In this document: one piece after another, positions 1 to 25,338 of the stretch
Layout of the letters: each line of letters starts with the position of its first letter
Numbering within the stretch: position 1 is the first letter of the stretch
DNA from: Nitratidesulfovibrio vulgaris str. Hildenborough
Lineage (GTDB): Bacteria > Desulfobacterota > Desulfovibrionia > Desulfovibrionales > Desulfovibrionaceae
Assembly: GCF_000195755.1 (NCBI RefSeq)
Contig: NC_005863.1
Coordinates: 1 to 32,000, forward strand
Direction of reading: 5' to 3'
Length of the DNA: 32,000 nt
Program-made: the position numbers and the translations under genes
Notes under the pieces: generated by a model
Seen by the model: the letters and a program-made list of their open reading frames with translations, nothing else
Told to the model about the DNA's origin: nothing
The model's database searches: none

Positions 1-649
1 CACAGCGGTGTGCCCCGCCGTCCCACCCTGTCGACCTGCCCTTACATGGGTTTGTGCTTTCATGATAGGCGGTTGTCCGATTTCACAGTGAACCACAGCG
101 CATGGTGTCTGTTCACGGCATGGCGCATCATGCCCAGACGCGCATGACGCGCCGGATTCACTCGCCCGCGGTGACCGCGCGAATGGCGTGCCTGCCAGCC
201 ACTCCTGTGAGGCGGCATCGGCAGCAGGCACAAGCGGCCCCCATGTCTCCGCCGTGTTGTGCGGGCATCCTGTAACAAGCTTGGAGGGCGATGGTCTGCG
301 GCACGATCCCAGCCGCGGCCTGGGAAGGGGCATCGGAGGGGCGTCGGCGCGCTGTACCGTGGCGATTTACAGAGACATCTCGGGCTGGCTGTCCGCCGAT
401 GAGCGAAGGTCCGCCGGCGACCCGTCAGCCACTCAAGGGTACTTCGCCCGGCGGGCATTCGGCACATCGGCCAGTCTCCCGGCTTGCAGGCACTTCGGCC
501 CGCCGGCTAGCCCCGGGCTGACTCGCCCACATGGGCACCGAGCCCTTCGCCAGCGCGAGGGCACGACCCGCCCGCCATCCGGGTACGGCTCCCCCTGTGA
601 CACCCCACCGGCAGCCTGCCCGCGCGGGATGATCGCTTCGGGAATCTAG
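1..649. other. GC-rich stretch with no credible coding frame; function unknown
   Basis: Only short overlapping ORFs (60-467 minus, 188-649 plus, 291-521 plus), with Arg/Pro/Gly/Ala-rich junk-like translations and no recognisable motifs. Contains imperfect hairpins, e.g. GTGAAC-N17-GTTCAC near 87-115 and GGCGCATCATG...CATGACGCGCC near 121-152. Confidence 0.3.
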
Positions 650-870
650 AAAATTTATAACCTGTCAAGAGGCGACAACTTTTACATTTTCTTCATGTTT
701 ACAGGACGTTGCAAGCGAAACACCCCTCCAATACGACGTCGTTCAGCGCAAACCGCAAGCGAATTCGTCTAAAAAAATGTTGATGGACAGAGTTTTTTTT
801 GATTAACCTGCTCGCATAACGCGAACGCCAAGCGTTACCTACATCTTTCCCGCAGAAGGGGGCCCGAAAC
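650..870 (+). promoter_or_regulatory. AT-rich parA upstream region with candidate operator repeats
   Basis: Sharp drop in GC directly upstream of parA. Direct repeats GCAAGCGAA at 711-719 and 756-764. Inverted repeat TAACGC-N9-GCGTTA at 817-837. Shine-Dalgarno AAGGGGG just before the ATG at 871. No promoter hexamers confidently assigned. Confidence 0.4.
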
Positions 871-1689
871 ATGGGTGCGATCATCGCCATCGTCAACAAC
901 AAAGGTGGGGTGGGCAAGACCACCATCACCACCAACCTTGCCCACGCGCTGGCAAACCTGCAACAGGAAGTGCTGGTCATCGACGCCGACTCGCAGTGCA
1001 ACACGAGTTCGTTCTTCTTTCACGGCGACGTCGAGCGCGTACCCGCACCCAACCTGTACGAATTGCTCGAAGACGACGCCGCGGACGTGCGCGACTGCAT
1101 CCACGCCGCGCCCGAATATTCGCGTATCGCCGTGCTGCCCACGCACCCCGACCTCGCCGGGCTGGAACCCGTCATCATCCAGCGTCCCGACACGGGCATA
1201 CGGCTCATGCGCGACAAGCTGCGCGACTATGCCAAGACCAAGTACGACTTCACGCTCATCGACTGCCCGCCCAACCTCGGCACCTTCGTCATGATGGCCA
1301 TGGTGGCGGCAGACTTCGTGCTGGTCCCGCTGGAAAGCGGCAGCAAATACTCCATCGACGGCATCGCCCGCACAGTGGGTCTCATCGACGACATCCGCTC
1401 CGAGGGCCAGAACAAGGACCTCACCCTGCTGCGCTTCCTGCTCAACAAGGCGCGGCCCCGCACCATCGTCGCCCGCGAGACACACGAGCGCCTGCGAGAA
1501 CGCTTCCCCGGTCGCGTGTTCGAGACCGTGCTTTCGGCCTCCACCGACCTGCAACAGAGCGAATACCTCAGCGAGACCGTCATTCGCAGCAAACCCAACA
1601 GCCAGCTTGCACGCCTGTTCCGCCAGCTGGCCAACGAGGTCGTGTCCCTGAAGGAGATAACCACCATGCAGGACGCGCCCTCTGCCTAG
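871..1689 (+). CDS. parA: ParA/Soj-family partition ATPase (deviant Walker A)
   Basis: N-terminus MGAIIAIVNNKGGVGKTTITTNLA is the KGGxGKT deviant Walker A. Also has the DxD-type motif VLVIDADSQ and Walker B FTLIDCPP. 272 aa with a good SD. Confidence 0.95.
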   Translation: MGAIIAIVNNKGGVGKTTITTNLAHALANLQQEVLVIDADSQCNTSSFFFHGDVERVPAPNLYELLEDDAADVRDCIHAAPEYSRIAVLPTHPDLAGLEPVIIQRPDTGIRLMRDKLRDYAKTKYDFTLIDCPPNLGTFVMMAMVAADFVLVPLESGSKYSIDGIARTVGLIDDIRSEGQNKDLTLLRFLLNKARPRTIVARETHERLRERFPGRVFETVLSASTDLQQSEYLSETVIRSKPNSQLARLFRQLANEVVSLKEITTMQDAPSA

Positions 1690-1739
1690 CCGACTAGACT
1701 TCCCTACCCTGCCCCCACCACGGGCGTGGAGGAACCGAT

Positions 1740-4700
1740 ATGCCCCCTGAAGCGACAGCCAACGCAAGCCCTGCCGGGCAACAACCGAAACGCAGGCGCG
1801 TTACGCTGGCAGACAGATTGCGTCAGGCCAGCAAGATGCAGTTCGAGTCGCCGGAACAGATTGCGGCCCGTGAAGCGCTGGAGAAGATGAACCGTGAGTC
1901 GGCACTGGCGACACCCGGTGACACCGACAGTCACGGGGTGTCTTCTGCTGTCACGCCTGACAAACCGACGACACACCAACACAAGGCCGTTGCCGAATCC
2001 GCGAAGGACGCCCCTTCGCCCCCCACCGTGACCAGCCCTTCCCCTGCCATAGAGGACGACCTCGGGCATGACACGTCGGCGGCCACGTCGGCGCGGGCAA
2101 GCACCGGTGAAGACGCCACCTGCGCCGCTTCTGGCACCACTCCCCGTGATGACGATGCCGGTCACCCCCTGACTGGCGCCGTCACCCGTGACGTCACCAC
2201 CCCAGAGACGCGTACTGTCACCCATGACACACCAGTCACCCCCGTGACAACAAAAGCCACGGGTGACTGCGATAGACACCCCGCGACAACAGCTGTCACC
2301 AGTGACACGGACTCCGAAACAGTGACCGCGACGGACACCAGTGACGCAAAACGTCACCCCGTGTCACCTGCGGCCACAGATGCCTCCAACAGTCACCCAG
2401 TGACGGCAGACGTCACCCCTGACGTCACCCCTGACAGCAACGCTCACCGGACGACAATGGCCGTCACTGGTGACAGCACGGTCACCCCCGACGGAGAACT
2501 CCCGGCTTCTTCAGCATCGACCCGCGAGCCCAAGACCGTGAGCAGCGCTGCCGACAGGGCATACACCGCCCCCCACGCCAGCCGGGGGAGGGACGCCGGA
2601 GACGACACCGGTCACCCCATGACAGACACCGTCACCAGTGACGGTACGTCACCCCCTCCTCCCCTATTCGTGCCCGCACATGGCCCACTGACGCACGGGG
2701 CGGTCGCGGCTACGGACACGGCAGGGGCAGCGACGGTCGAAGAAGGCCCTGCACACGACGTGCAGCCCATGCGGCAGGCTGAGGCATCGTCTGCGCCCCA
2801 TGCGTCGCGCGAAGCGCCCACAGGCACGGCGTACGCGGGCACAGAGGCAGGAAGTGCACACGGGCACGACCGCAGCACCGCGGGCCTTGCGACGACCGCA
2901 GAGGAAACGCCCTGCACGCCATGCGAAGCGCCAACCCCCGAGACGGCAGCCACACTGCATGACCGTTCCGCTGTGAACGCTCGCGCCATGGGGACGGAAA
3001 AGGTCACGGGGACAGAGAGAGTCACCCCTGACCCAACCGGTCACCCCGTGACCGCGGCAATCACCGTACGGCACGATGAAGGCCCCCTCCCCGGAGCTGA
3101 GACTCCGGGGGTATCTGGAGCAGAATCACCCCATGTGACGCCCCATGTGACGCCCCGAGTGACGCCCCGAGTGACGCCGGATGCGACGCAGGATGCGACG
3201 CCGGAGGCCTCTGGCAGTACATTGCCGGGTGCGACATCCGACCTGACGGGGGGCCTGACCGGGGGCCCGTCCGTGACAGCAGCGGGCGCAGAAGCAGACG
3301 CGGGCACAGAGACCGGCGCGCCGTATGCGCGGGCTGCCGCCTCCAAGGACCAGTCGGATGCGACACGCCCCGGAGATGACATCGCACCGTCACATGCCGC
3401 ACGGCAGGCAGCGGGTATCAGCGACGGCGCAACCACCGTCTCCGACGTCACCCCCCTGTCAGCCCACGACACGATGTCTTCTTTCGTCACGGATGACAGC
3501 CACGGTCACCCCATGACGGACAACGTCACCACTACCGAGCCTACCGTCCATCAGGCCATGGCCCATGGGATGGCTCCGGTGGTGAATAGCCCGAAGCCAG
3601 AGGGCGGTGTGCATGTGCGCAGCCCCCTCCCCGCCCACGACCTTGCCGGGCACATGGGGCACAGTGCCGAGCAAGCCCCCCAGACAGGGAACGTCACGGA
3701 TGACGCATCACGTCACGGGGTGTCGGCAGAAGTCACCCCTGACATGTCCGCCACGGCCCCAGTCACCCCAGTCACCCCAGTCATCCCAGTCAGGCCGGGC
3801 ACTCCGGGCCCGCTTGCAGGGCTGACCACATCGCGCACGCTTCTCAACAGCACCTTGCAGGTCAACATCTATAATATGGTGCTTGAGGCGGGCGGGGCCG
3901 TGTTCACCTCGGGCGGGCAGATGGCCAAGCGCTTCGACGTGGCCGTGCGTTCGGTGCGCCGTACCCTCGACCTCATGGAGACCAAGGGCATCCTCAGCCG
4001 CGAATCGGGGGCGGCGGGCATGACGCTGCGTCTGCTCATGGACCCCCTTTCGGTGATGGGCATCCATGCCAGCGGTCTGCCCGCAGGTGTCATCGGCGCG
4101 GTGCATGACGCCGGGGCAGTCCATGACGGCATCATGGGCGGGCACGCCCCATACCGGACGGGAAGAGGTCCGGACATGCCCACGTTCCCGTCGGGTTCGC
4201 CGGCGGCACACACGCCCGAATTTGTGGCAGGGCACGGCACGGGCGCGGAGGGCAGGGGAGGGTATCCCGCAGCGGGGATGCCGCAGCCCCATGCCCCGCA
4301 CCCTTCGCCGTCACCCCGTGACAGCTATGGTCACCCCTCGTTCATGCACGCCGCACCCCATCCGGTACAGACCTCCCCGCACCTGAACGACCAGCAGGGC
4401 AGGGCGGCGAACCCCGGCGACATGGTCGCGCCGCACAGGCCTGCCGCTGCCCATCAGATGCACGGCGGCATGGTGCCACGGCATCAGCCCGGGGCGACAC
4501 AGACGGGGCAGGCAGCGAGCGTGTCAGGTGCTGGCACACCGGGCACCACGGCGGGAGACGCCTTCGGAGTGCCGTCCGGCGGCCCCGGGGCGGACATGGC
4601 GTTCTTCCGCGAACGCTATCCCCATCTCGCCCGTGCGGGCTTCGGCCCGGCACAGGTGAAGCAGGTGCGTGAGGCACTGGCATCACGCGACCTGCCCGAC

Positions 4701-5135
4701 GACCTCGTGGAAGAGTCGCTCGGCTATGCCGAATGGGAACTCGAGCATGGCACCATGGTCGACGCCAAGGGACAGCCCATCGCCAAGCCCGCCGACTGGG
4801 TCTTCAAGTCGCTTGCCATGCACGGCTGCTACAGGCGGCCCGCCGGATACGTCGACCCGCTGGAAGAGGCCCGGGCGCGCATCGCCGAACGCATCGCCGC
4901 ACAGACGGCCCACCGCGAACAACTGGCGCGCCTGCGTGAAGAGCAGGAGAAGCTTGAGATGGAAGCCCTCATCGACGCGGAGGTTGAACGGCTTGCCGCA
5001 GCCCCCGACAGCGCAGAGGTGGACGAACTGTTGCAAGGGCTGCCCGCCGTGCTGCGCGCCAAGGGGCTTGAGAGCGCACTGGTACAGCGCGAGATGCGTC
5101 GCCGCCTGCGCGAACGTCTCTTCCCGGAGGGGTGA
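1740..5135 (+). CDS. Large (1131 aa) repeat-rich protein with a central MarR/GntR-like winged-helix segment and a C-terminal coiled coil; candidate centromere- or origin-binding partner of ParA
   Basis: SD GGAGGA lies 6 nt before the ATG, 50 nt after the parA stop. Basic N-terminal peptide QQPKRRRVTLADRLRQ. About 650 aa of V/T/P/D/H-rich low complexity with recurring GHP(V/M/L)T-xx-VT. wHTH-like segment QMAKRFDVAVRSVRRTLDLMETKGILSRE (nt ~3840-3990). P/H/G-rich linker. Ordered C-terminal domain (nt ~4600-5135) ending in an E/R/L-rich coiled coil. No ParB box seen. Whether the whole low-complexity part is translated is unproven. Confidence 0.7.
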   Translation: MPPEATANASPAGQQPKRRRVTLADRLRQASKMQFESPEQIAAREALEKMNRESALATPGDTDSHGVSSAVTPDKPTTHQHKAVAESAKDAPSPPTVTSPSPAIEDDLGHDTSAATSARASTGEDATCAASGTTPRDDDAGHPLTGAVTRDVTTPETRTVTHDTPVTPVTTKATGDCDRHPATTAVTSDTDSETVTATDTSDAKRHPVSPAATDASNSHPVTADVTPDVTPDSNAHRTTMAVTGDSTVTPDGELPASSASTREPKTVSSAADRAYTAPHASRGRDAGDDTGHPMTDTVTSDGTSPPPPLFVPAHGPLTHGAVAATDTAGAATVEEGPAHDVQPMRQAEASSAPHASREAPTGTAYAGTEAGSAHGHDRSTAGLATTAEETPCTPCEAPTPETAATLHDRSAVNARAMGTEKVTGTERVTPDPTGHPVTAAITVRHDEGPLPGAETPGVSGAESPHVTPHVTPRVTPRVTPDATQDATPEASGSTLPGATSDLTGGLTGGPSVTAAGAEADAGTETGAPYARAAASKDQSDATRPGDDIAPSHAARQAAGISDGATTVSDVTPLSAHDTMSSFVTDDSHGHPMTDNVTTTEPTVHQAMAHGMAPVVNSPKPEGGVHVRSPLPAHDLAGHMGHSAEQAPQTGNVTDDASRHGVSAEVTPDMSATAPVTPVTPVIPVRPGTPGPLAGLTTSRTLLNSTLQVNIYNMVLEAGGAVFTSGGQMAKRFDVAVRSVRRTLDLMETKGILSRESGAAGMTLRLLMDPLSVMGIHASGLPAGVIGAVHDAGAVHDGIMGGHAPYRTGRGPDMPTFPSGSPAAHTPEFVAGHGTGAEGRGGYPAAGMPQPHAPHPSPSPRDSYGHPSFMHAAPHPVQTSPHLNDQQGRAANPGDMVAPHRPAAAHQMHGGMVPRHQPGATQTGQAASVSGAGTPGTTAGDAFGVPSGGPGADMAFFRERYPHLARAGFGPAQVKQVREALASRDLPDDLVEESLGYAEWELEHGTMVDAKGQPIAKPADWVFKSLAMHGCYRRPAGYVDPLEEARARIAERIAAQTAHREQLARLREEQEKLEMEALIDAEVERLAAAPDSAEVDELLQGLPAVLRAKGLESALVQREMRRRLRERLFPEG
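1925..4340. repeat. Dense array of GTCAC/GTGAC-based motifs embedded in the large ORF, including 8 copies of a ~26-bp composite unit
   Basis: Composite GTCACCCC(N)TGAC-N7-GTCACC at 2161-2186, 2392-2417, 2611-2636, 3040-3065, 3505-3530, 3712-3737 and 4310-4335, plus a compact variant at 2353-2368. Also 12-bp tandem repeats (GTGACGCCCC-NN) at 3133-3200 and 9-bp tandem repeats (CAGTCACCC) at 3761-3795. Confidence 0.85.
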
Positions 5136-5180
5136 TGCGAGGGACGCGGGATGCCGGTGCCATGAGGGGTGGCAGACAGG

Positions 5181-5432
5181 ATGACAGGCAGGGTGACACC
5201 GTCGGTCACGGGGTGACAGACCAAGGATGACAGCGAGGGACACGGGGTGGTGACAGGTCACCTGACACGGGGCGACACCCCATGACAATCCGCCCCTCGA
5301 AACGTCACCGGTGACAGGACAGGGCCCGTGACGCGACACGTCCCCCATGACAGCGCATGTCGCGAGGTGACATGTGGAGCATCTGAAACAAAAACAATGG
5401 GTTGGGTACAAGCCCGTGACATGGGCGGTCAC
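5181..5432. repeat. Non-coding iteron-like array of GTGAC/GTCAC pentamers; candidate centromere or origin iterons
   Basis: Strict GTGAC or GTCAC at 5193, 5205, 5213, 5250, 5257, 5304, 5311, 5328, 5366, 5416 and 5428, plus ATGAC/CTGAC/GCGAC variants. Inverted copy of the 26-bp composite unit at 5192-5217. Palindromes GTCACGGGGTGAC (5205-5217) and GTCACCGGTGAC (5304-5315). My rough base-composition estimate is under 1 strict pentamer expected by chance in 250 nt. Confidence 0.6.
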
Positions 5433-5451
5433 CCCCCTCTTATATAAGGAA

Positions 5452-5479
5452 GATAGATAGAAAGAAGAGTCTATCTATC
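5452..5479. promoter_or_regulatory. Perfect 9-bp inverted repeat in an AT-rich patch just upstream of the HU-like gene; candidate operator or DNA-unwinding-adjacent element
   Basis: GATAGATAG (5452-5460), N10, CTATCTATC (5471-5479). Preceded by TATATAAGGAAG. The HU-like ATG is at 5490. Confidence 0.4.
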
Positions 5480-5489
5480 GCAGGAACAC

Positions 5490-5843
5490 ATGGAAAAGAC
5501 GAGCAAGCCGCAACTGGTGGCCTACCTGCGGGAAAGGGCACACCTCACGGAAGAGCAGGCGCTGATGACGCTCAAGGCCTTGTATCTCTTCTCGCTGGAG
5601 CATCTTGAGAAGGGCGTGGGCGTGGTGCTGCCCGACATCGGGCAAATCAAGCCATCCATGGGCAAGGGCGGGGTAGGGCGCAACTTCCGCACCGGAGAGG
5701 CGACGGTCATCGAACCCAAGCTCAAGCTCACGTTCAGTGCGTCCAAGGCACTGAAGGAACCGCTGGACGCGGCGCAGCGCAAGGCCGCGAAACAGCGCGA
5801 CGCGAAGTCGCAGGACGGCGCGACGGGCGACGGACGGGCGTAG
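5490..5843 (+). CDS. HU/IHF-family nucleoid-associated DNA-binding protein with a basic C-terminal tail
   Basis: 117 aa. The beta-arm signature GRNFRTGEATVIEPKLKLTFSASKALKE matches the GRNPxTGE...I pattern of HU/IHF proteins. N-terminal helical segment KPQLVAYLRERAHLTEEQA. Confidence 0.85.
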   Translation: MEKTSKPQLVAYLRERAHLTEEQALMTLKALYLFSLEHLEKGVGVVLPDIGQIKPSMGKGGVGRNFRTGEATVIEPKLKLTFSASKALKEPLDAAQRKAAKQRDAKSQDGATGDGRA

Positions 5844-6497
5844 CCACGACCGGACGGCTGGCTGCCGCCAGACATGGTGAGGCCCGGGTGCGCACGCGGG
5901 GCACGATGCCCGACACACGCAAGCCCGGTCATGCCTCCTCCCATGAAGCCCCGGAGGGGCATCGGCCCGAAGCCTCGCAGGTGAATATCAAGGTCACCCC
6001 CGATGCTTCGCGAGGTGACCCCGGCAGAGGGCGACCCGGTGGTGAAGACGTCCGGCCGGGGCGTGATGGTGGCGGTACGACGAAGGGTGATGACGCCCGG
6101 AAGAGGTTACCGGCGAGAAGGGCACGGATTACCGTCTTCCAGGCAGATGTCGCCCCTGCCGCACGGTCGCAGGGGCGGAAGCGGCAGACGTTGCGGGAAG
6201 GCGTACCTTCCGCCGCAAGACCGGAGAGGCTGGACCTCCATCGTCCGCCAGTCGCCACGCCGTGAGGTGTGGGCCGACCATGGGCACAGGCCTTGCGTTG
6301 CCGGAGGGCAGGGTCGCCTGTCTGCGGTGCTTCTGCCCGGGCAGACCGCGTGGCGCGCGAACCTGCGAAGCATGGGGTTCGCAGGTCCGCGGAGGGATGT
6401 TCCGGAGGGAAGCCGCTGACACGGGCGGCAGGGGGCTTATGCCCCGCGGCCCCGTCGATAGGGCGGGCCATGCCGCATCAGCCGGGGTCTGCTCGGG

Positions 6498-7418
6498 TCA
6501 GGGCCGCGCCGTCTTGCGTCTGACGACGAGTGTGCTGTGCCCGCTGCCACGCAGGATGTGTTCGGCGGTGCTCTTGAACAGCAGCCGCTGCAACACTCCG
6601 TGGTCATGCATGCCGACGATGGTGAGGTCGGCGCTGCACCCCTCTGCCGTCCCCATGATGGAGGCGGGCACGACGCCCCGTGGCAGGTGCGACCTGACGG
6701 TGACAGGGGCATCGCCATCCCTCTCCATGATGGCGGAAAGCCTTGCAAGGGCGTTATGAAGGTGCCCGCCGTGCCGCGAATACTCGTGCGCGGCGTGCGT
6801 GTTCGCCTCCTTCCGGGCGACGCCGCTCTTGGATGTGATCTTCATCCGGGCGAACACATCCCACGCATGCACCACGTGAAGCGTCGCGCTGTGACGTGTG
6901 GCGATGCCGTATGCGGCTTCGAGGATAGCCTCGTTGAGGCTCCTGTCCGAAGGCGAGTCGATGACGTCGTCACAGCCGATGGCCGCTACGATGTTGCGGA
7001 GGCTGTTCGTACCCTGCTTCAGGACGAGCACGTCGCCCTGCGCGCCATGGACGAAGTTCATGAATGTCTTCGTCTGGATGGGGTTCGCGAAGAGGTTCGC
7101 GTGGTGGTCGACGATGGTGAGGTCGTGTTGCCCCGGGCGCTGTGCAGACAGCCGGGAGAGCGTATCGGCACCGTCGGTCACGATGACGTCGTGACCTGCA
7201 CCGCAGCCCGTATCGTGGCCCTTGCCACGCCATGCCGGGGCCTCGGCGCGCCGCGCATCGGCCTCGCACGCCTGTTCCATGTCACGCCGGAGGGCGTCGT
7301 CGCACAGTATGGTGAGCGGTGCACCGAGTCTTCGCGCGAAGTCGATGGCGAAGAGGGCCCTGTGCCTGTCCGTGCCGGGGCCGGTCGCCCCGTAGAGTAT
7401 CCTGTCGTAGCAGCGCAT
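6498..7418 (-). CDS. Tandem-domain universal stress protein (UspA family)
   Basis: Two Usp-like halves. The C-terminal signature DLTIVGMHDHGVLQRLLFKSTAEHILRGSGHSTLVV matches the G-x2-G-x9-G(S/T) Usp ATP-binding pattern. ORF is open to GTG 7433, but SD GGAGG is best spaced for the ATG at 7418. Confidence 0.85.
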   Translation of the reverse strand: MRCYDRILYGATGPGTDRHRALFAIDFARRLGAPLTILCDDALRRDMEQACEADARRAEAPAWRGKGHDTGCGAGHDVIVTDGADTLSRLSAQRPGQHDLTIVDHHANLFANPIQTKTFMNFVHGAQGDVLVLKQGTNSLRNIVAAIGCDDVIDSPSDRSLNEAILEAAYGIATRHSATLHVVHAWDVFARMKITSKSGVARKEANTHAAHEYSRHGGHLHNALARLSAIMERDGDAPVTVRSHLPRGVVPASIMGTAEGCSADLTIVGMHDHGVLQRLLFKSTAEHILRGSGHSTLVVRRKTARP

Positions 7419-16222: not shown

Positions 16223-17851
16223 TCAGTCGTTGAGACCGGCGGTGAGGGTGGGGCCGGTGTCGAAGGGCGAGCGCGTAAGCTTCCATGCCGGACTGTGGAT
16301 CATGGCGTAGACGTCGCGGGCGAAGTTCACCGCGCCCTCGTAGCCCGCGTAGGGACCGGAGTAGTCGTAGTTGTGCAGCTGCTTGCAGGGCACGCCGAAC
16401 TTCTCGATGACGTACTTGTCCTTGATGCCGGAGCAGATGATGTCGGGGTTCATGCGATGGATGAGCTTTTCGATCTCCACATGCGACACGTCGTCGATGA
16501 CGAGGGTGCCCTCGCCCATGTCGTCCCACATGCCCTCGTAGGACGAGAGCAGCCCTTCGCGTTCGAGCTGTTCGCGGTAGGCGGGGTCGAGGCGCGGGCG
16601 GTAGCGTTCGGGGTCGGCGGTGACCTTCAGCTCTTCGATGTTCTTCGAGTCGGCGTCGACGCGGATGGTGGGAATGACCCTGCGCCCCTCGTAGTCGTCG
16701 CGGTGCGCGAACTCGAAGCCCGCCACCAGCGGTTCCATGCCGAGGTCGCGCATGAGGTGCATGTAGTGGTGCGCCCGCGAACCGCCCACGAAGAGCATGG
16801 CGGTCTTGCCTTCGAGTCCGGGCATGTAGGCGGCGAGGGCGGTCTCGGCCCTGGCCTCCTCTTCGGCGATGACGGACTCGATGCGCGCGGTGAGCGCGGC
16901 GTCGTCGAAGTAGCGGGCTATCTTGCGCAGCGACTGCGACATGGAGCGCATGCCGATGAAGTTGACCTTCATCCACGGAATGCCGAACTTCGTCTCCATC
17001 ATCTCTGCGAGATAGTTGATGGAACGATGGCACATGACGAGGTTGAGGTTGGCACTGTGCGCCGTGCACATGTCTTCGTAGACGCTGTTGCCGGAGAAGG
17101 TCGCCACCACCTCGATGCCGCACTTCTCAAGCACACGTTCAATCTCGTAGGCGTCGCCGCCGATGTTGTACTCGCCAAGCACGTTGACCGAGAAGCGGCC
17201 CGCCTCGCGTTCACGCGTGCCCAGTGCCATGTCGAATATCTTGTTGTTGGCGATGTGGTGGCCCGCCGACTGCGAGACGCCCTTGTAGCCCTCGCAGTTG
17301 AACGCCATGACGGGTATGCCCGTCTCCTTGCTCAATTCGCGGGCCACGGCCTGTATGTCGTCACCGATGAGACCCACCGGACAGGTGGCGTGTACGCTGA
17401 TGGCCTCTGGCCTGAAGATGGCAGCCGCCTCGCGGATGGCCTGCGCCAGCTTCTTCTCGCCGCCGAAGATGATGTCCTCGTCCTGCATGTCGGTGGTGAA
17501 GCAGTACGAGAGGTAGTTCTTGCCCGCCTCGCCCCGTGCGCGAAACTGGTTGCGCCGCGTAAGCCATGCGTAGAAGCTGCACCCCACCGGGCCGTGTACG
17601 ATGTGTACCATGTCCCCGTAGGGACCGATGACGACGCCCTTGCAGCCCGCATAGCAGCAGCCGCGCTGGGTGATGATGCCGGGCACCGTGCGGGTGTTGG
17701 CCTCTATCTGCTGGGCGAGTCCGGGGTCGCCGTCCTTGCGGACGACCATGTGGGCGCGGCGTTTCTTGGCCACCTTGGGCGGGTAGAGTGACGTCACCTC
17801 GTCCACGAAGGATTCGAGGTCGACGCCGGGGTCGGTCTTGAGCGTGGTCAT
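16223..17851 (-). CDS. nifD: Nitrogenase MoFe protein alpha chain
   Basis: 542 aa. RGCCYAGCKGVVIGPYGDMVHIVHGPVGCSFYAW and CHRSINY (FeMo-co Cys ligand region). SD AGGAGGAAG. Confidence 0.97.
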   Translation of the reverse strand: MTTLKTDPGVDLESFVDEVTSLYPPKVAKKRRAHMVVRKDGDPGLAQQIEANTRTVPGIITQRGCCYAGCKGVVIGPYGDMVHIVHGPVGCSFYAWLTRRNQFRARGEAGKNYLSYCFTTDMQDEDIIFGGEKKLAQAIREAAAIFRPEAISVHATCPVGLIGDDIQAVARELSKETGIPVMAFNCEGYKGVSQSAGHHIANNKIFDMALGTREREAGRFSVNVLGEYNIGGDAYEIERVLEKCGIEVVATFSGNSVYEDMCTAHSANLNLVMCHRSINYLAEMMETKFGIPWMKVNFIGMRSMSQSLRKIARYFDDAALTARIESVIAEEEARAETALAAYMPGLEGKTAMLFVGGSRAHHYMHLMRDLGMEPLVAGFEFAHRDDYEGRRVIPTIRVDADSKNIEELKVTADPERYRPRLDPAYREQLEREGLLSSYEGMWDDMGEGTLVIDDVSHVEIEKLIHRMNPDIICSGIKDKYVIEKFGVPCKQLHNYDYSGPYAGYEGAVNFARDVYAMIHSPAWKLTRSPFDTGPTLTAGLND

Positions 17852-17862
17852 GGTGCTTCCTC

Positions 17863-18258
17863 CTAGCCTTTCATCTCGTCGATGGCGGTGGCCCCGGTCT
17901 CTCCGGTGCGGATGCGGGCCACGTCGATGACGGGCCTGACGAATATCTTGCCGTCGCCCGGCTGCCCGGTGCGGTTGGCCTTCATGAGCACGTCGACCAC
18001 GGCACTGACGCGTTCGTCCGGCACGACGATGGTGAGCATGCGCTTCTGGATGAGCCTGCCCCCCTGTGCGAGGGCGGGCAGCACGTCTGCCGTATCTTCG
18101 CCGCTGCCCTCAAGGTGCTTCAGCAACTCGAACTCGACCGGCTTGCGCCCGCGGCCCATGCAGCGCGCCCCGGTGAAGGCGGGCAGCCCGGCCTCGACCA
18201 TCGCCTTCTTGGTGGCGTTGATTCTGTTGGGGCGGATGATGGCGATGACTTCCTTCAT
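17863..18258 (-). CDS. nifI2: PII-family nitrogenase regulator NifI2
   Basis: 131 aa GlnB-like fold (MKEVIAIIRPNR...GDGKIFVRPV) with an extended T-loop, located between nifI1 and nifD as in nifH-I1-I2-DK clusters. Confidence 0.9.
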   Translation of the reverse strand: MKEVIAIIRPNRINATKKAMVEAGLPAFTGARCMGRGRKPVEFELLKHLEGSGEDTADVLPALAQGGRLIQKRMLTIVVPDERVSAVVDVLMKANRTGQPGDGKIFVRPVIDVARIRTGETGATAIDEMKG

Positions 18259-18267
18259 GGCATTCCC

Positions 18268-18594
18268 CTAGCTTTCGCGTACGCCGGAACTGATGGTGTA
18301 GACCTCTTCAACCGGGGTGACGAAGATCTTGCCGTCACCGAACGAGCCTTTGGTGCCCGTGCGCGCGCTCTCCATGATGGCCTTGAGCACGTATTCGCGG
18401 TCGGCGTCGGGCACTACGGTGATGAGCATCTCCTTGGGCAGTTCGTCGTAGACGACCTCGCCGAACTTCAGGCCGCGCTGCTTGCCGCGTCCTGCCACCT
18501 CAAGCTTGGTGACGGCGGGGTAGCCCGCTTCGAACAGTGCCTGCATGACGGTGGAACTCTTCTCGGGTCGTACGATGGCCTTGATCATGATCAT
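18268..18594 (-). CDS. nifI1: PII-family nitrogenase regulator NifI1
   Basis: 108 aa: MIMIKAIVRPEK...AGRGKQRG...GDGKIFVTPVEEVYTI. SD AGGAGGA precedes the ATG at 18594. The upstream in-frame ORF extension to 18867 is repeat junk. Confidence 0.9.
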   Translation of the reverse strand: MIMIKAIVRPEKSSTVMQALFEAGYPAVTKLEVAGRGKQRGLKFGEVVYDELPKEMLITVVPDADREYVLKAIMESARTGTKGSFGDGKIFVTPVEEVYTISSGVRES

Positions 18595-18876
18595 GTCCGT
18601 GTCCTCCTGTGCGGATGGGGGCAGATAGTGGGCGGATGGTGGGGGATGGTGGCCTGATGGTAGCGGGTGCGGCTTGCCTGTCCGCCTGCCCGCCTGCCCG
18701 GTTGTCCAGTCTGTCCGCCTGCCCGGTTGTCCCGTGTCCCGTCGTCCTGTTATCCCGTTGCCCGGTATGGCCTGTCGGGGCTGTCCCGTGACGCGGGTGA
18801 CGCGGATGCCGTGGATGATACGGGCGACGCGGATGTCGCGGGTGACACCGGTGCCGCCACCTTGCATCGGGCCGCG
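18595..18876. repeat. 282-nt repeat-rich spacer between nifH and nifI1
   Basis: Direct repeats GTCCGCCTGCCCGGTTGTCC (two copies within ~18680-18735). GACGCGG and GTGAC motifs at 18788-18846. On the sense (minus) strand it carries many GGG runs. Confidence 0.8.
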
Positions 18877-19950
<1,074 letters not shown>

Positions 19951-21988: not shown

Positions 21989-22207
21989 TCAGGCGTCGGG
22001 CGCGAAATACGGCAGGGTCAGGCTTTCGCCATCCCATGCAGGAGGAAACGCGTTCATGCGTTCGCGCGCCCTTATCCCCAGCAGGGCAAGGTCGCCCGGT
22101 GTGCGAGGCTTGCGACGAACGCCTGAAAGCTTCTTGCCCGCCAGAAAGCGTTCTTTGCGAACCTCTCTGGCAGCGTCGGCAAATGTGGTGAAGTCATAGG
22201 TGCTCAT
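21989..22207 (-). CDS. Hypothetical small protein (72 aa)
   Basis: ORF MSTYDFTTFADAAREVRKERFLAGKK...; no motif recognised. Start chosen at the ATG at 22207. Coding status is uncertain. Sits at the edge of the low-GC island. Confidence 0.35.
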   Translation of the reverse strand: MSTYDFTTFADAAREVRKERFLAGKKLSGVRRKPRTPGDLALLGIRARERMNAFPPAWDGESLTLPYFAPDA

Positions 22208-22629
22208 GACGACCTCAGGGTACGGGGCTTGACCTGCTGGGTTTCTTCGGGTGATTAAAACTTGGCTGGTGATCGGGCCATGTGCCATTGTTCTTGGAGT
22301 GGTTTTGTTTCGTAGTGAAAGCCAAGGTCGTTATCGAAGGCGGGCGCAGACCCTACATTGAGGTGTAACCCTGCTCAGGCTTGGATAAGTCCCACCCCGC
22401 AAGGCATTGCGGCCGAGAACGGCTAGAATCTTGACCGGAGGGCACTCTCGATAGTGGCATGGTCAGAAGAAACTCGAGAGATCAAGGATAAATCCTCCTT
22501 GTTGGTTAAGTACTAGTATTGTTCGGCCAATAAAATACGTTGCAAGTATTCGGCAAGGCGATGGGGGTGGTTTCTGTTCGGTTTCCCTGCTGGCTATATC
22601 CCACTTGTTGCGTTGATTTTTCATAAAAC

Positions 22630-24444
22630 GTGTATCTTGGGTTTGATTCAAGATGGCCTTGCCTGAAGTATTTGCAATACCTAAATTTCTATGCCGCCAT
22701 TGCTGGCATGGTTAGCCTTGGAGGTAGTCTCATTTTTCAGCTCAATTTGTTTGAAGGATCACGAAACGTGGAGATTTCTGCTGCAGTGGATGCCCTGGCT
22801 TCACAAGGAGATGTAGAAACTCGCGGAGCGATTTTTACTCGGGAAGAAGTCGTTGACTTTATTCTTGATCTTGTTGGCTATAATGATGATCAAAATCTTT
22901 TTATGAAGCGTATTCTCGAACCTTCATTCGGAGGGGGCGACTTTATTTTTCGTATCATGGAAAGGCTTTTTCGTTCTTGGCGTAGTACTAAACCGTCTGA
23001 AAATGTAGTAGACGTTCTTGGAGATGCAATTAGAGGCTTTGAGATTCATCGAGACACATTTTTAGCAACTCATAGAGCTGTTATGTCTCGAATTGAGAAT
23101 GAAGGCTTTTCTTCATCTACTGCAAAGTGTTTAGCTGATCGTTGGCTCTCGAATGACGACTTTCTTCTTGCGCCACACTGTGGAAAATTTGAATTTGTTG
23201 TTGGTAATCCTCCATATGTGAGACAAGAGCTAATTCCGAATTTACTACTCAAAGAGTATCGTACTCGTTATCATACTATGTATGATAGGGCTGATATTTA
23301 TATCCCATTTATCGAGCACTCTTTGTCGTTGCTTACACGGAAGGGAAGCCTTGGTTTTATTTGTTCAGATCGGTGGATGAAGAACAGGTATGGTACTCTC
23401 CTGAGAAAATTGATAGCTGACAGGTTTAATTTGAAGTTTTATGTTGATATGGTTGGTACTCAAGCGTTTCAGAGCAGTGTTGTTGCATATCCCGCAATAA
23501 CTGTGATTAGTCGAGAAAAGCAGGTCGCGACTCGTGTAGCGCAACGTCCCTGTATTAGCAGGGCAGAGCTACGTAGTTTGGCTTCAGAGCTGACGGCAAA
23601 GCGTTTGCTAAAAGAATCGGTCTATCACGTACGTGAGCTTTCACACATCACAAAAGGGGGAGAACCATGGCTGTTTGAGTCTGCCGATAAAACGGCTTTA
23701 GTCCGTCGTCTTGAGCGGAGTTATCCGACACTTGAGGAAGCAGGCTGTAAGGTTGGGATTGGCGTTGCCACTGGGGCCGACAAGTCCTTTATCGGTAGAT
23801 TCGACGATCTTGATGTAGAACCCGACAGAAAGCTTCCTCTTGTCATGACCCAGGACATTGCATCCGGTGAGGTTAAATGGCGTGGTCTTGGGCTTGTTAA
23901 TCCATTCAACGACTCGGGTACTCTTGTTAACCTTCAAAAGTACCCGCGTTTGTCCCGCTATCTGCAAGAGCGGAAAGAGGTACTTGTTCGTCGGCACTGC
24001 GCTCAAAAAAACCCAACTAAATGGTATAAGACTATTGATAAGATTGTTCCGTCTTTGGCAAGCCAGGAAAAGTTACTCATTCCAGATATCAAAGGTAATG
24101 CTCATGTCGTTTACGAACAAGGTAGCTTGTACCCTCATCACAATTTATACTATGTAATTTCTTGTACATGGGACATCAGAGCTTTGCAGGCTGTGTTGTT
24201 GTCAGGAGTCGCCAAGCTTTTTGTTGAAGTATACTCAACAAAAATGCGAGGAGGGTTTTTGCGTTTCCAGGCACAGTATTTGAGGCGAATACGTATTCCA
24301 TTTTGGGAAGACGTTTCGCTTGGGCTACGTGAAGAACTTATAGTAGCTGCCAAGAGTAGAAATCTTGAGGCATGTAACGCAGCAGCCTATCGGCTTTATG
24401 CGTTGACAGGTGAGGAAAGGGCAGCAATCGAGGGGTTAGGCTAA
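22630..24444 (+). CDS. Gamma-class N6-adenine DNA methyltransferase (Eco57I/TaqI-like fold; candidate M.PaeR7I/M.XhoI-type enzyme)
   Basis: AdoMet motif [12 protein letters not shown] lies upstream of catalytic motif [11 protein letters not shown] (the gamma order). N-terminal [16 protein letters not shown] block. Long C-terminal target-recognition region. Start is uncertain: GTG 22630, ATG 22708, or GTG 22768 (preceded by GAAGGA). Confidence 0.9.
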
Positions 24445-25184
24445 TGTCATTGGACTTGGTGAATTATGAACGTAAAGTGTGTGAAGCTGTGCAGGCTTTT
24501 TGGAATAATCGTGCCTCAGCTCGCGAAAAGCAACTTGAATCTGGGAAGACAGATCAGGGAGAGCGCGCAGGTGTAACTGCAGGCAAGAATATGGATGGCT
24601 TTGTCGAGTTGGTACTTGATATTGTACGTGCAAATGGTCTTGCACATGCAGATATTCATCAGAATAAAGGGCTTCTCACGCTTCCTGGTTTTTTCCGGCC
24701 GACAAAACTATGGGATCTGTTGGTTATCTCTGAAGGGCAGTTGATAGCTGCTGTTGAGTTTAAAAGTCAAGTTGGACCGTCATTCGGTAATAATTTCAAC
24801 AACCGAGCAGAAGAAGCCATAGGTACGGCACATGATTTTTGGACGGCGTATAGGGATGGTGCTTTCGGTGAACAGCCCAGACCATTTATCGGGTGGCTTA
24901 TGTTGGTTGAAGATGCACCAGCGTCCCGTGCAGCTGTTCAGGAGTGTTCTCCCCACTTCCCTGTTTTTCTAGAGTTTAAGGGTGCATCATACATAAAAAG
25001 ATATGACATCCTTTGCCAAAAGCTTATGCATGAGAGGCTCTATACAACTGCCTCAGTTATAGCATCACCCAAGAATAATTGTCGCTTAGGTCAATATTCC
25101 TCTTTGTCTCCTATGACAAATATAAAAACGTTTGTAACGTCTCTTGCTGGCCATATTGCCGCCGAAGCCGCTCGGCTTTCTTAA
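24444..25184 (+). CDS. Type II restriction endonuclease, XhoI/PaeR7I-like (predicted CTCGAG specificity)
   Basis: 246 aa. The ATG overlaps the methylase TAA by 1 nt (TAATG). E-x-K-type catalytic candidate AVEFKSQ preceded by WDLLV. From memory, the methylase-then-246-codon-endonuclease order and size match the published PaeR7I system. The family call is unverified. Confidence 0.65.
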
Positions 25185-25338
25185 TACATATGTTCCACCT
25201 GTAGTTATTAAAGAAAGCAACATGAAAAATTGGTGTGCTGGTTTCAAATCTGTGAAGTGATTGATTGTCATAACTCCCGTAACGACTGATACTTCGGCCT
25301 GAACGGTGACCTCTTTGCCCAGCCGGGGCTGGCGCATC

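What the first reader, a model, noticed from the sequence alone, without database searches (positions are those of the whole stretch)
5136..5489. Candidate replication origin or centromere: iteron-like array, then an AT-rich inverted repeat, then an HU/IHF-like gene
About 250 nt of non-coding DNA holds 11 strict GTGAC/GTCAC pentamers plus variants; my rough estimate is under 1 expected by chance. Two of them form palindromes (5205-5217 and 5304-5315). The array is followed by the only AT-rich patch in the area (5437-5480), which has a perfect 9-bp inverted repeat, and then by a nucleoid-protein gene. Iterons, an AT-rich unwinding element and an IHF/HU requirement together form the classic layout of iteron-controlled plasmid origins. 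The same layout would also fit a parC-type centromere.
Basis: partly seen in the sequence, partly recalled or inferred. Interest (0 to 1): 0.65.

Follow-up and report, generated by a model that had tools for sequence, protein, structure and literature searches.

The report
Plasmid maintenance sites spilling beyond their gene
The repeats are real, but they are only the non-coding tail of a roughly 6.8-kb field of about 75 GTGAC sites written largely into the coding sequence of an uncharacterised ParA-partner gene, and this field marks the replication and partition locus of the Desulfovibrio vulgaris megaplasmid pDV1.

Summary
There are 11 strict GTGAC/GTCAC pentamers in 5193-5432, against about 0.85 expected (P about 2e-9). 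A 32%-GC patch with a perfect 10-bp inverted repeat follows, and then an HU-family gene.

The array is not confined to this spacer. Another 51 copies lie inside the upstream 1131-aa ORF (1740-5135, "X"). They occur in all reading frames and on both strands. More copies lie upstream of parA.

The window is the start of the 202-kb megaplasmid pDV1, which has no recognisable Rep or ParB gene. X sits directly after parA in 17 of 17 related loci and belongs to an unannotated family. It has an N-terminal basic peptide, a disordered region, a MarR-like winged helix, a linker and a conserved C-terminal domain.

Every relative carries its own short repeat inside its own X gene, usually at 13-bp spacing, and the repeat changes together with the recognition helix. 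Between two pDV1 strains, substitutions in the repeat-bearing part of X ignore codon position but avoid the pentamers (1 observed, 7.8 expected).

After correcting for gene orientation, the plasmid's GC-skew switch maps to window 1.3-5.7 kb.

Verdict: these are X-binding sites of the plasmid's maintenance locus. A centromere role is likely and an origin role is plausible. The classic iteron-origin model is only partly supported.

The parts
594..604 (.). Isolated motif copy (TGTGACACCCC), about 40 bp upstream of the AT-rich parA leader region.
   Evidence: Two further clusters of about 9 copies lie just before window position 1 on the circular plasmid, at L002 6097-6170 and 6600-6655.
640..830 (+). 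The most AT-rich stretch of the module (44-bp windows at 25-30% GC), with A7 and T8 tracts and TTTACA hexamers. It is probably the parA-X promoter/operator region and is an alternative candidate for an unwinding element.
   Evidence: The function is inferred, not shown.
871..1689 (+). parA: a 272-aa Walker-type partition ATPase (WP_011176580.1).
   Evidence: Pfam AAA_31 E = 7e-41 and CbiA E = 1e-21. NCBIfam ParA_partition matched at E = 6e-33 but below its cut-off. A ParA gene lies immediately upstream of X in 17 of 17 related loci.
1740..5135 (+). X (WP_011176581.1, annotated 'hypothetical protein'; probably DVUA0003). A 1131-aa partner of ParA with this layout: N-terminal basic peptide, about 650 aa of disordered region, MarR-like winged helix, about 170-aa disordered linker, and a conserved helical C-terminal domain.
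   Evidence: No Pfam or NCBIfam family. Architecture from the alignment and the AlphaFold2 model. The family has 181 clusters at E <= 1e-30, with no domain other than the winged helix in 109 representatives.
1918..3795 (.). Intragenic array of 48 strict GTGAC/GTCAC pentamers plus variants. It includes 12-bp tandem units at 3131-3202 and 9-bp units at 3760-3795. The same DNA word is read as V-T, G/S/R-D, G/S/R-H or x-S-x depending on frame.
   Evidence: 51 copies in the whole ORF against 12.9 +/- 3.4 in shuffles. DvH versus strain L2: 63 substitutions spread evenly over codon positions (20/20/23), but only 1 inside a pentamer against 7.8 expected (P = 0.002). Indels are whole repeat units and are in frame.
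3831..4040 (+). Coding sequence of the winged-helix DNA-binding domain of X (residues ~698-767).
   Evidence: AlphaFold2 pLDDT 90-97. MarR-family matches at E = 5e-7 with a 109-sequence profile against PDB sequences. Foldseek hits to MarR/ArsR proteins and to pNOB8 AspA.
4310..4334 (.). Three motif copies (GTCACCCCGTGACAGCTATGGTCAC) in the linker-coding segment. This is the position of the second repeat cluster in relatives.
4584..5126 (+). Coding sequence of the conserved C-terminal domain of X (WPxLARxGFG ... AEWEL ... GYYRRPxGYxSPxEQ), followed by a long helix.
   Evidence: Mean column identity of 51% across five plasmids. pLDDT above 90. No solved or viral structural relative.
5166..5432 (.). 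The finding proper: the non-coding continuation of the array. It holds 11 strict pentamers and about 6 one-off variants, mostly as (G)GTGACA on the + strand at 10-14-bp spacing, and ends in an inverted pair at 5416-5432.
   Evidence: The spacer is 99% identical between strains DvH and L2, against 97% for the whole 5.7-kb locus. The differences amount to a swap of one repeat unit.
5392..5404 (+). A single IHF-consensus-like site (AAACAATGGGTTG, 1 mismatch to WATCAANNNNTTR), between the array and the AT-rich patch.
   Evidence: 1 of only 4 such matches in 32 kb. This is an E. coli consensus, so its relevance here is unknown.
5437..5480 (+). AT-rich patch (32% GC) with a perfect 10-bp inverted repeat at 5452-5461 and 5470-5479. 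It is either a small unwinding element or, at least as likely, the -10 region and 5' UTR hairpin of the HU gene.
   Evidence: The promoter reading (GTGACA 5416-5421, 19 bp, TATATA 5441-5446) comes from the sequence. The consensus scan did not call it.
5490..5843 (+). HU-family DNA-binding protein gene (WP_011176582.1), an accessory found only in the pDV1 lineage.
   Evidence: Pfam Bac_DNA_binding E = 5e-17. It is absent next to X in all 16 other loci.
5990..6022 (.). An outlying inverted pair, GGTCACC-N15-GGTGACC, downstream of the HU gene.

Best explanation
The window is the start of the 202-kb Desulfovibrio (Nitratidesulfovibrio) vulgaris megaplasmid pDV1.

The repeats at 5166-5432 are the non-coding 3' extension of a ~6.8-kb field of about 75 GTGAC-type sites. 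The field is centred on the gene downstream of parA. That gene (X) encodes an uncharacterised protein made of an N-terminal basic amphipathic peptide, a long disordered segment, a MarR-like winged helix, a disordered linker and a conserved C-terminal domain.

Proposed mechanism:
1. X dimers bind the GTGAC/GTCAC half-sites through the winged helix. This is inferred from motif and recognition-helix covariation across the family.
2. Many X molecules coat the parA-X locus and form one large nucleoprotein complex.
3. The N-terminal peptide of X engages ParA, so the complex acts as the plasmid's centromere. This is inferred.
4. The same complex, or part of it, probably also serves as the replication origin, with X as initiator recruiting host replication proteins through its conserved C-terminal domain. 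This is a plausible inference, based on the absence of any other Rep gene and on the GC-skew switch at this locus.

Shown here:
- The sites are under DNA-level purifying selection, while the peptide they encode is not.
- The arrangement is a family trait.

The intergenic array is a lineage-specific overflow of the intragenic array. The HU gene and the AT-rich patch are local additions, not core parts.
For: Identity of the replicon:
- The locus is 100% identical to NC_017311.1. The window begins at plasmid position 196,862, and the DvH coordinate offset agrees.

The array is real and extended:
- 62 of the plasmid's 544 GTGAC copies lie in 3.75 kb (ORF plus spacer).
- 10 of the plasmid's 11 GTCAC-N2-4-GTGAC palindromic sites lie there.
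- Additional clusters lie upstream of parA.

DNA-level selection:
- The motif occurs in all frames and on both strands.
- Between DvH and L2 there are 63 substitutions in 1900-3800, spread 20/20/23 over codon positions. Only 1 falls in a pentamer, against 7.8 expected (P = 0.002).
- Indels of 30, 3, 36 and 9 nt are all in frame.

Family trait:
- parA is followed directly by X in 17 of 17 loci.
- Each locus has a private 7-13-nt repeat that is enriched only in its own X gene.
- In relatives, 46 neighbour spacings are exactly 13 bp, 16 are 26 bp and 4 are 39 bp. A 13-bp period forces the repeats through all three reading frames.
- Loci that share a motif share the recognition helix: CAGACAA with GTARTII[DN]KF, and CGGACA with YRTVRRGIDKL.

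Protein features:
- The winged helix is confidently modelled and is MarR-like (E = 5e-7).
- An N-terminal peptide of the type RKRRSLADTLREA or KKRLTMFDAMDGAL (in pDV1, KRRRVTLADRLRQA) is present in most members.

Origin role:
- No Rep or ParB is annotated on pDV1 or on five other plasmids that carry the module.
- The raw cumulative GC-skew minimum is at window 4935.
- With gene orientation regressed out, the arm effect is +0.034 (+0.057 at third codon positions). The breakpoints are at window ~1.3-5.7 kb and at ~110 kb. They do not move when parA and X are excluded.
- The same regression puts the switch at X in the D. bizertense plasmid and in pDRET01.
- There are weak similarities to phage O-like initiators, DnaD-like loaders and replisome organisers.
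Against: - No binding, replication or partition experiment exists for this locus. X-site binding is inferred only from covariation.
- The GC-skew evidence is weaker than the raw curve suggests. Coding strands on this plasmid are C-rich, so the raw curve is confounded by gene orientation.
- After correction, the switch does not map to the module in pDCAR1 or pDMC1.
- Within 15 kb of the locus, 95% of coding DNA points towards it. That pattern is more typical of a terminus. Plasmid-wide co-orientation is 48%, which is uninformative.
- The similarities to initiators are weak (E = 4e-4 to 8e-3, low TM scores). They involve only the generic winged helix and were found in relatives or in the model, not as strong hits for pDV1 X.
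- The best PDB matches are ordinary MarR/ArsR regulators and one archaeal centromere-binding protein.
- pDV1's array departs from the family pattern. It is GC-rich, has 12- and 20-bp rather than 13-bp spacing, and is about five times larger.
- The resemblance of the N-terminal peptide to ParB's ParA-activating peptide rests on my own knowledge and was not tested.
Confidence: 0.55

Rival explanations
1. Centromere only. The GTGAC field is the partition site of a ParA-X system, with X as a non-ParB, winged-helix centromere-binding adaptor. Replication starts from a separate, unrecognised origin with an unrecognised initiator or with host factors.
For: - parA and X are strictly linked.
- X has an N-terminal basic peptide like other ParA partners.
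- Foldseek recovers the pNOB8 centromere-binding winged-helix protein AspA among the hits.
- There is a precedent for a centromere inside the adaptor's own gene: ParT/parS of SCP2 (PMC12260392).
- The orientation-corrected skew switch is not at the module in pDCAR1 or pDMC1.
Against: - None of the six complete plasmids has any recognisable Rep gene.
- Two of them (pDRET01 and D. bizertense) also carry ordinary small ParA/ParG-type loci, which would make a second pure partition system redundant.
- The skew switch maps to the module in pDV1, D. bizertense and pDRET01.
- The C-terminal domain is far more conserved than the DNA-binding domain. That is expected for a host-machinery contact.
Confidence: 0.2
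2. The spacer 5136-5489 is by itself a classic iteron origin. Initiator-bound direct repeats melt the adjacent 5437-5480 AT-rich element with help from the plasmid-encoded HU protein.
For: - There is a dense, roughly helically phased array.
- An AT-rich patch lies directly beside it.
- An IHF-consensus-like site at 5392-5404 lies between the two.
- An HU gene is adjacent.
- The raw skew minimum lies 200 bp away.
- Two sequencing centres placed coordinate 1 of their records inside this spacer. That may only be convention.
Against: - There is no Rep of a known iteron family.
- There is no DnaA box.
- The units are short cores in mixed orientation, not 17-22-bp tandem iterons.
- Four-fifths of the sites lie outside the spacer.
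- Relatives have no downstream spacer array and no HU gene, yet keep the intragenic arrays.
- The AT-rich patch is only 44 bp and fits a promoter plus 5' UTR for the HU gene.
- A larger AT-rich region lies upstream of parA.
Confidence: 0.12
3. Transcriptional operator array. X is a MarR-type repressor, and the sites autoregulate parA-X and control the HU gene. The arrays have no direct mechanical role in replication or segregation.
For: - The winged helix is MarR-like.
- GTGACA is one base away from the sigma-70 -35 hexamer TTGACA. The consensus scan calls CTGACA-N16-GACAAT at 5262-5289 and at 2431-2458.
- The last site pair overlaps the putative HU promoter.
Against: - Regulators do not need 50-75 sites spread through 3 kb of their own coding sequence.
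- The strict linkage to ParA, the plasmid-only distribution and the locus-specific arrays with 13-bp phasing are hallmarks of segregation or replication sites.
- Autoregulation is in any case a normal side function of partition and Rep proteins, so it does not compete with those roles.
Confidence: 0.08
4. By-product of a repetitive protein. The pentamers simply reflect slippage-generated VTP, GHP or DPT peptide repeats, and the spacer copies are decayed coding remnants.
For: - X has a low-complexity T/P/V/D/H-rich region.
- Indels between strains are whole repeat units.
Against: - The same DNA word is used in three frames and on both strands.
- Substitutions show no codon-position bias yet avoid the pentamers.
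- The 13-bp period in relatives cannot arise from selection on a peptide.
- Copies also occur upstream of parA and downstream of the HU gene.
- The motif covaries with the recognition helix.
Confidence: 0.03

Closest known systems
Phage lambda O protein with ori-lambda, and Bacillus phage SPP1 G38P with oriL (origin repeats inside the initiator's own gene). This rests on my own knowledge.
   Same: - A winged-helix DNA-binding domain, a flexible linker and a C-terminal domain that recruits the helicase loader.
- The binding-site repeats, and in relatives of X an AT-rich stretch, are written into the linker-coding part of the protein's own gene.
- Weak PHROG hits to 'replication initiation O-like' and 'DnaD-like helicase loader', and weak Foldseek hits to 'replisome organizer' proteins.
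   Different: - There is no significant sequence homology.
- X has a second array upstream of its winged helix, an N-terminal ParA-type peptide and an obligatory parA neighbour.
- The units are 5-13 bp rather than 18-19-bp iterons.
- pDV1 has 50 or more intragenic sites plus non-coding overflow.
RepA_N replicons of Firmicutes (pAD1 repA, pCF10 prgW), which have oriV in the variable central part of the rep gene and ParA-like RepB/PrgP next door. This rests on my own knowledge.
   Same: - Plasmid-specific short repeats lie inside the variable middle of the maintenance gene.
- The conserved domains flank that variable region.
- A ParA-type gene is adjacent.
   Different: - There is no RepA_N domain.
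- RepA_N plasmids have a separate small centromere-binding protein (RepC/PrgO). Here no third gene exists.
- The host clade is different (Desulfovibrionales).
repABC plasmids, with oriV inside repC (PMC3155836)
   Same: - A ParA-type gene and the replication function sit in one operon.
- The origin lies within a coding sequence.
- These are large, low-copy replicons.
   Different: - repC's internal origin has an AT-rich region but no iterons.
- repABC has a true ParB (RepB).
- X is not RepC-like: no Pfam or NCBIfam hit.
SCP2 ParA-ParT-parS system of Streptomyces (PMC12260392)
   Same: - A ParA partner that is not a canonical CTPase ParB.
- Its centromere lies inside its own coding sequence.
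   Different: - ParT has one 18-bp inverted repeat and slides as a clamp. X loci have 10-75 short sites.
- There is no homology (hhalign probability 0.15%).
Classic iteron plasmid origins (RK2, F, R6K, pPS10) and parC-type centromeres (R1, pB171).
   Same: - A cluster of phased short repeats beside an AT-rich patch.
- Proximity to a nucleoid-protein function and to partition genes.
   Different: - There is no Rep_3, TrfA or pi-type initiator.
- There are no DnaA boxes.
- The units are too short and are of mixed orientation.
- There is no ParM or ParR.
- Most sites are intragenic.

Membership tests
Iteron-type theta plasmid origin | A plasmid-encoded initiator of a recognised Rep family next to the repeats | tested here: not met
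   X has no Pfam, NCBIfam or PHROG Rep match. No Rep is annotated anywhere on the 202-kb plasmid.
Iteron-type theta plasmid origin | Tandem direct repeats of about 17-22 bp, in one orientation and helically phased | tested here: not met
   The conserved core is 5-9 bp (GGGGTGACA). Orientation is mixed (7 on + and 4 on - in the spacer). Spacing is 10-20 bp.
Iteron-type theta plasmid origin | An adjacent AT-rich DNA-unwinding element | tested here: inconclusive
   A 44-bp patch at 32% GC is present. It also fits the HU promoter and 5' UTR, and a larger AT-rich region lies at 640-830.
Iteron-type theta plasmid origin | DnaA boxes in the origin | tested here: not met
   No TTATCCACA match with up to 1 mismatch occurs before position 13005.
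Iteron-type theta plasmid origin | A switch of strand compositional asymmetry at the site | tested here: met
   The raw minimum is at window 4935. The orientation-corrected breakpoint is at window ~1.3-5.7 kb, with the opposite breakpoint at ~110 kb. Caveat: genes converge on the locus locally.
Iteron-type theta plasmid origin | Autonomous replication and incompatibility of the cloned fragment | not testable with these tools
   This needs cloning into a suicide vector and transfer into a pDV1-free D. vulgaris strain.
Type I (ParA/Walker) partition locus | A Walker-type ParA ATPase gene | tested here: met
   Pfam AAA_31 E = 7e-41 and CbiA E = 1e-21.
Type I (ParA/Walker) partition locus | An adaptor gene directly downstream of parA that encodes a site-specific DNA-binding protein | tested here: met
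   X follows parA in 17 of 17 loci. It has a confident MarR-like winged helix.
Type I (ParA/Walker) partition locus | The adaptor belongs to the ParB/HTH-CTPase class (type Ia) or the ribbon-helix-helix class (type Ib) | tested here: not met
   There is no ParBc, ParB or RHH match in X or in 109 family representatives.
Type I (ParA/Walker) partition locus | An N-terminal peptide of the adaptor that activates ParA | tested here: inconclusive
   A conserved basic amphipathic N-terminus is present in most members. The resemblance to ParB peptides comes from memory. Activity is not testable here.
Type I (ParA/Walker) partition locus | A cluster of cognate repeated sites in or next to the operon | tested here: met
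   Locus-specific repeats are enriched only in each locus's own X gene, and they covary with the recognition helix. Physical binding was not tested.
Initiators with an intragenic origin (lambda O, SPP1 G38P, RepA_N, RepC) | Binding-site repeats located within the protein's own coding sequence | tested here: met
   There are 51 pentamers inside X. The same holds in all relatives examined.
Initiators with an intragenic origin (lambda O, SPP1 G38P, RepA_N, RepC) | Sequence or structural homology to one of these initiator families | tested here: not met
   Only weak hits were found: phrog_345 (O-like) at E = 2e-3 and 8e-3 and phrog_186 at E = 4e-4 in two relatives, and BFVD 'replisome organizer' hits at E ~3e-3 with TM below 0.3. 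There is no RepA_N or RepC match.
Initiators with an intragenic origin (lambda O, SPP1 G38P, RepA_N, RepC) | An AT-rich segment associated with the intragenic repeats | tested here: inconclusive
   In several relatives the repeat clusters are the most AT-rich spots of the module, for example L020 at 20% GC in a 55% GC contig. In pDV1 the intragenic array is GC-rich.
SCP2 ParT family | Homology to ParT | tested here: not met
   hhalign of the X family profile against SCP2.04c gives probability 0.15% and E = 0.38.
HU/IHF family (for the downstream gene) | The Bac_DNA_binding fold | tested here: met
   Pfam PF00216 E = 5.4e-17 over residues 5-92. NCBIfam IHF-alpha and HU models match below their cut-offs.

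The most novel reading that the evidence does not exclude
X defines a previously unrecognised class of plasmid maintenance protein. The family has at least 181 clusters at 50% identity and occurs mostly in Desulfovibrionales plasmids. In this reading X is at once the replication initiator and the ParA adaptor. Its cis-acting origin/centromere is encoded as phased short repeats, typically every 13 bp and therefore in all three reading frames, within the disordered-linker-coding parts of its own gene. That would make a two-gene, self-contained replicon. In pDV1 this array has expanded about five-fold, inflating the protein to 1131 aa and spilling into the flanking non-coding DNA.
Probability: 0.35. 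Interest if true: 0.8.

Novelty: new variant of a known kind. Interest (0 to 1): 0.62.

Why it matters
- pDV1 carries the nif, type III secretion, CRISPR-Cas and exopolysaccharide genes of the main model sulfate reducer. Its replicon has never been defined, and replicon-typing tools leave it and its relatives untyped.
- Identifying parA-X and its site field as the maintenance locus gives a concrete fragment of about 6-7 kb to test as a new low-copy vector backbone for Desulfovibrionales. It also explains the megaplasmid's loss and stability phenotypes.
- The family is a clean natural example of DNA-level function dominating a translated sequence. The peptide drifts freely while the embedded binding sites are conserved.
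- The family also offers a testable case of one protein coupling initiation and partition.

Tried and rejected
1. A protein search with the full-length X alignment was swamped by low-complexity words and returned only 3 hits. I repeated it with the C-terminal domain and with an exhaustive HMMER search.
2. No Pfam, NCBIfam, PHROG or PDB-sequence assignment was found beyond a generic winged helix. Foldseek against PDB and BFVD gave only winged-helix-level matches and nothing for the C-terminal domain.
3. There is no DnaA box near the locus. There is no Rfam family in the window.
4. The promoter/terminator scan called only motif-derived -35-like matches. It also called the AT-rich hairpin as a weak minus-strand terminator, which I do not believe.
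5. Tn-seq essentiality data for the pDV1 genes (PMC10102598, Table S5) is truncated in the held copy and does not include the parA, X or HU rows. No paper on the pDV1 origin was found. Published transcription start sites could not be retrieved.
6. I first took the raw cumulative GC-skew minima, which fall at or near X in 5 of 6 plasmids, as strong evidence. I then found that coding strands are C-rich and redid the analysis as a regression. This keeps pDV1, D. bizertense and pDRET01 but drops pDCAR1; pDMC1 was already off the module in the raw curve and stays so.
7. The small contigs L013 and L016 show no terminal overlap, so they cannot be claimed as complete mini-plasmids.
8. ParT of SCP2 was tested as a possible homologue and rejected.
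9. The DvH versus L2 spacer comparison is too close (99%) to show site-specific conservation.
Full report
**What the window is.** Positions 800-6500 are 100% identical to Nitratidesulfovibrio (Desulfovibrio) vulgaris RCH1 plasmid pDEVAL01 and 97% identical to the DP4 and L2 megaplasmids. I assembled the full 202,305-bp RCH1 plasmid from six fetched pieces. The window begins at plasmid position 196,862 and is identical to it up to window position 30,837. A coordinate offset taken from a published gene table shows that the window is the first 32 kb of the Hildenborough pDV1 record. The local gene order is:
- parA, 871-1689
- a 1131-aa 'hypothetical protein', here called X, 1740-5135
- the 354-bp spacer of the finding
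- an HU-family gene, 5490-5843

**Checking the observation.**
- Eleven strict GTGAC/GTCAC pentamers lie between 5193 and 5432. The window background predicts 0.85 (Poisson P about 2e-9). Dinucleotide shuffles of the segment itself give 2.0 +/- 1.35 and never more than 7 in 500 trials.
- With one-off variants, 16 same-strand NGACA cores lie in 5174-5417, mostly 10-14 bp apart.
- 5304-5315 is a perfect palindrome. 5205-5217 is a pair of inverted half-sites.
- The AT-rich patch is 32% GC, and its inverted repeat is in fact 10 bp long.
- The downstream gene is HU/IHF-like.

Two statements need correcting. First, a longer and more AT-rich region lies upstream of parA at 640-830. Second, the array is not limited to non-coding DNA.

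**The array is much larger than reported.**
- The same pentamer occurs 51 times inside X (1918-4334), against 12.9 +/- 3.4 in shuffles.
- It occurs twice after the HU gene. About nine copies lie in two clusters 0.2-0.8 kb upstream of window position 1.
- Plasmid-wide, 62 of 544 copies, and 10 of the 11 GTCAC-N2-4-GTGAC palindromic sites, fall in the 3.75 kb of X plus the spacer.
- Inside X the word is read in different frames as V-T, G/S/R-D, G/S/R-H or x-S-x, and on both strands. It lies in a roughly 650-aa T/P/V/D/H-rich segment.

**Selection acts on the DNA, not on the peptide.** I compared strains DvH and L2 across the repeat-bearing part of X (1900-3800).
- The 63 substitutions are spread evenly over codon positions (20/20/23). 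This means there is no detectable protein-level constraint.
- Only one substitution hits a pentamer, where 7.8 are expected (P = 0.002).
- The indels (30, 3, 36 and 9 nt) are whole repeat units and all preserve the reading frame.
- In contrast, the winged-helix and C-terminal coding parts are almost invariant.

**X is the conserved partner of ParA and belongs to an unannotated family.**
- X has no Pfam or NCBIfam family.
- Its C-terminal domain finds homologues next to parA on plasmids of Solidesulfovibrio, Desulfohalobium and Desulfobaculum and in 12 further genome contigs. parA lies immediately upstream in 17 of 17 loci.
- An exhaustive HMMER search finds 181 clusters at E <= 1e-30. Among 109 representatives, no domain other than a winged helix is detected.
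- The shared architecture is a basic amphipathic N-terminal peptide, a variable disordered segment, a winged helix, a disordered linker and a well-conserved helical C-terminal domain.
- The winged helix is MarR-like (E = 5e-7). The C-terminal domain has no structural relative. pDV1's X is two to three times longer than any relative.

**Intragenic, locus-specific repeats are a family trait.**
- Each relative carries its own 7-13-nt repeat, for example TGTCCAAA, CAGACAA, CGGACA, ACCGCTCA or ATCCAACAC. Each is enriched only inside its own X gene.
- The repeats form two clusters, one before the winged helix and one in the linker.
- Neighbour spacings are exactly 13 bp in 46 cases, 26 bp in 16 and 39 bp in 4. 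The arrays therefore cycle through all three reading frames, which only DNA-level selection can explain.
- Loci with the same motif share the recognition helix, and different motifs go with different helices. This covariation is the best available evidence that the winged helix of X binds the repeats.
- In several relatives the repeat clusters are also the most AT-rich spots of the module.

**Origin, centromere, or both?**

For a partition role:
- X is obligatorily linked to ParA.
- Its N-terminal peptide resembles the ParA-activating peptides of ParB-type adaptors. That resemblance is from my own knowledge and was not tested.

For an origin role:
- None of six complete plasmids with this module has a recognisable Rep gene.
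- Two of them also have ordinary small ParA/ParG loci.
The raw cumulative minimum is at window 4935 and the maximum at 116 kb.
- Coding strands on this plasmid are C-rich, so I regressed per-gene top-strand skew on gene orientation and replication arm. An independent arm effect remains (+0.034, or +0.057 at third codon positions). Its breakpoints are at window ~1.3-5.7 kb and at ~110 kb, and they do not move when parA and X are excluded.
- The same analysis places the switch at X in the D. bizertense plasmid and in pDRET01. It does not do so in the IS-rich plasmids pDCAR1 and pDMC1.
- There are weak sequence and fold similarities to phage O-like initiators and replisome organisers. These point the same way but are not strong.

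Caveats:
- Genes within 15 kb converge on the locus, which is a terminus-like pattern. Plasmid-wide co-orientation is uninformative.
- There is no DnaA box.

**The spacer itself.**
- Relatives lack a downstream non-coding array and lack the HU gene. The spacer array is therefore best seen as a pDV1-lineage overflow of the intragenic field, not as a separate classic origin.
- The AT-rich patch can be read as the HU promoter and 5' UTR: GTGACA at 5416-5421, 19 bp, TATATA at 5441-5446, then a hairpin, a ribosome-binding site and the ATG at 5490.
- A single IHF-consensus-like site at 5392-5404 keeps an unwinding or bending role possible.
- The spacer is 99% identical between strains. The only change is a swapped repeat unit.

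**Comparison with known systems.**
- Functionally, the closest analogues are initiators whose origin lies in their own gene: lambda O, SPP1 G38P and RepA_N (own knowledge), and RepC (PMC3155836).
- The SCP2 ParT system has its parS inside parT (PMC12260392).
- X is homologous to none of these.
- It also fails the defining features of classic iteron origins and of ParB or ribbon-helix-helix partition adaptors.

**Verdict.** The finding is a real, strongly non-random feature. It belongs to the maintenance locus of pDV1. It is a new variant of a known kind, and its most interesting aspect lies upstream of the reported coordinates.

Noticed in passing
window 22000-25500: A low-GC island (41-49% GC against about 67%) coincides with an Eco57I-like methylase and a PaeR7I-family restriction endonuclease (RCH1 17324-19740, equal to window 22768-25184). 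It is probably a horizontally acquired restriction-modification cassette.
   Followed up: partly
window 3131-3202 and 3760-3795: Perfectly phased tandem units lie inside X. There are six 12-bp units encoding (H/R)VTP and DATQ-type repeats, and four 9-bp units (CCAGTCACC). Strain L2 lacks three of the 12-bp units and one 9-bp unit, so the array length is evolving by unit gain and loss.
   Followed up: partly
window 2431-2458 and 5262-5289: The motif core TGACA is close to the sigma-70 -35 hexamer. The consensus scan calls the identical promoter-like string CTGACA-N16-GACAAT once inside X and once in the spacer. I did not examine whether the arrays titrate RNA polymerase or drive internal transcripts.
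   Followed up: no
L002 4419-6096 (plasmid 194,418-196,095, just before window position 1): A hipB-like HTH gene and a HipA-family toxin gene sit immediately upstream of the first GTGAC cluster. A toxin-antitoxin stability module therefore abuts the parA-X locus.
   Followed up: no
window 30837 onward: The window (Hildenborough) and RCH1 sequences are identical up to position 30,837. After that they fall out of register (906 mismatches in a positional comparison), which indicates an indel between the two strains.
   Followed up: no
window 5888-6265: An ORF directly after the HU gene is annotated as a hypothetical protein in strain DP4 but not in RCH1. It begins next to the outlying GGTCACC/GGTGACC pair. 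The overlapping ORF at 6003-6419 has no Pfam match, and this ORF itself was not scanned.
   Followed up: no
L026/L027 (D. bizertense plasmid NZ_CP090010.1): About 20 kb of gene content appears twice, at 1-20 kb and at 50-72 kb. The same protein accessions occur in both copies. This suggests a large duplication or an assembly artefact, and it affects the skew 'terminus' of that plasmid.
   Followed up: no
protein P0040 (metagenomic relative): One family member has the X C-terminal domain fused to a NikA-like mobilisation (relaxosome accessory) domain in place of the winged helix. This hints that the C-terminal domain is a portable module that contacts DNA-processing machinery.
   Followed up: no
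L008 (pDMC2, 8.9 kb): The smallest complete plasmid with the module encodes two DnaB_C-type helicase-like proteins but no Rep. This resembles the IncQ arrangement of a plasmid-borne helicase plus an iteron-binding initiator.
   Followed up: partly
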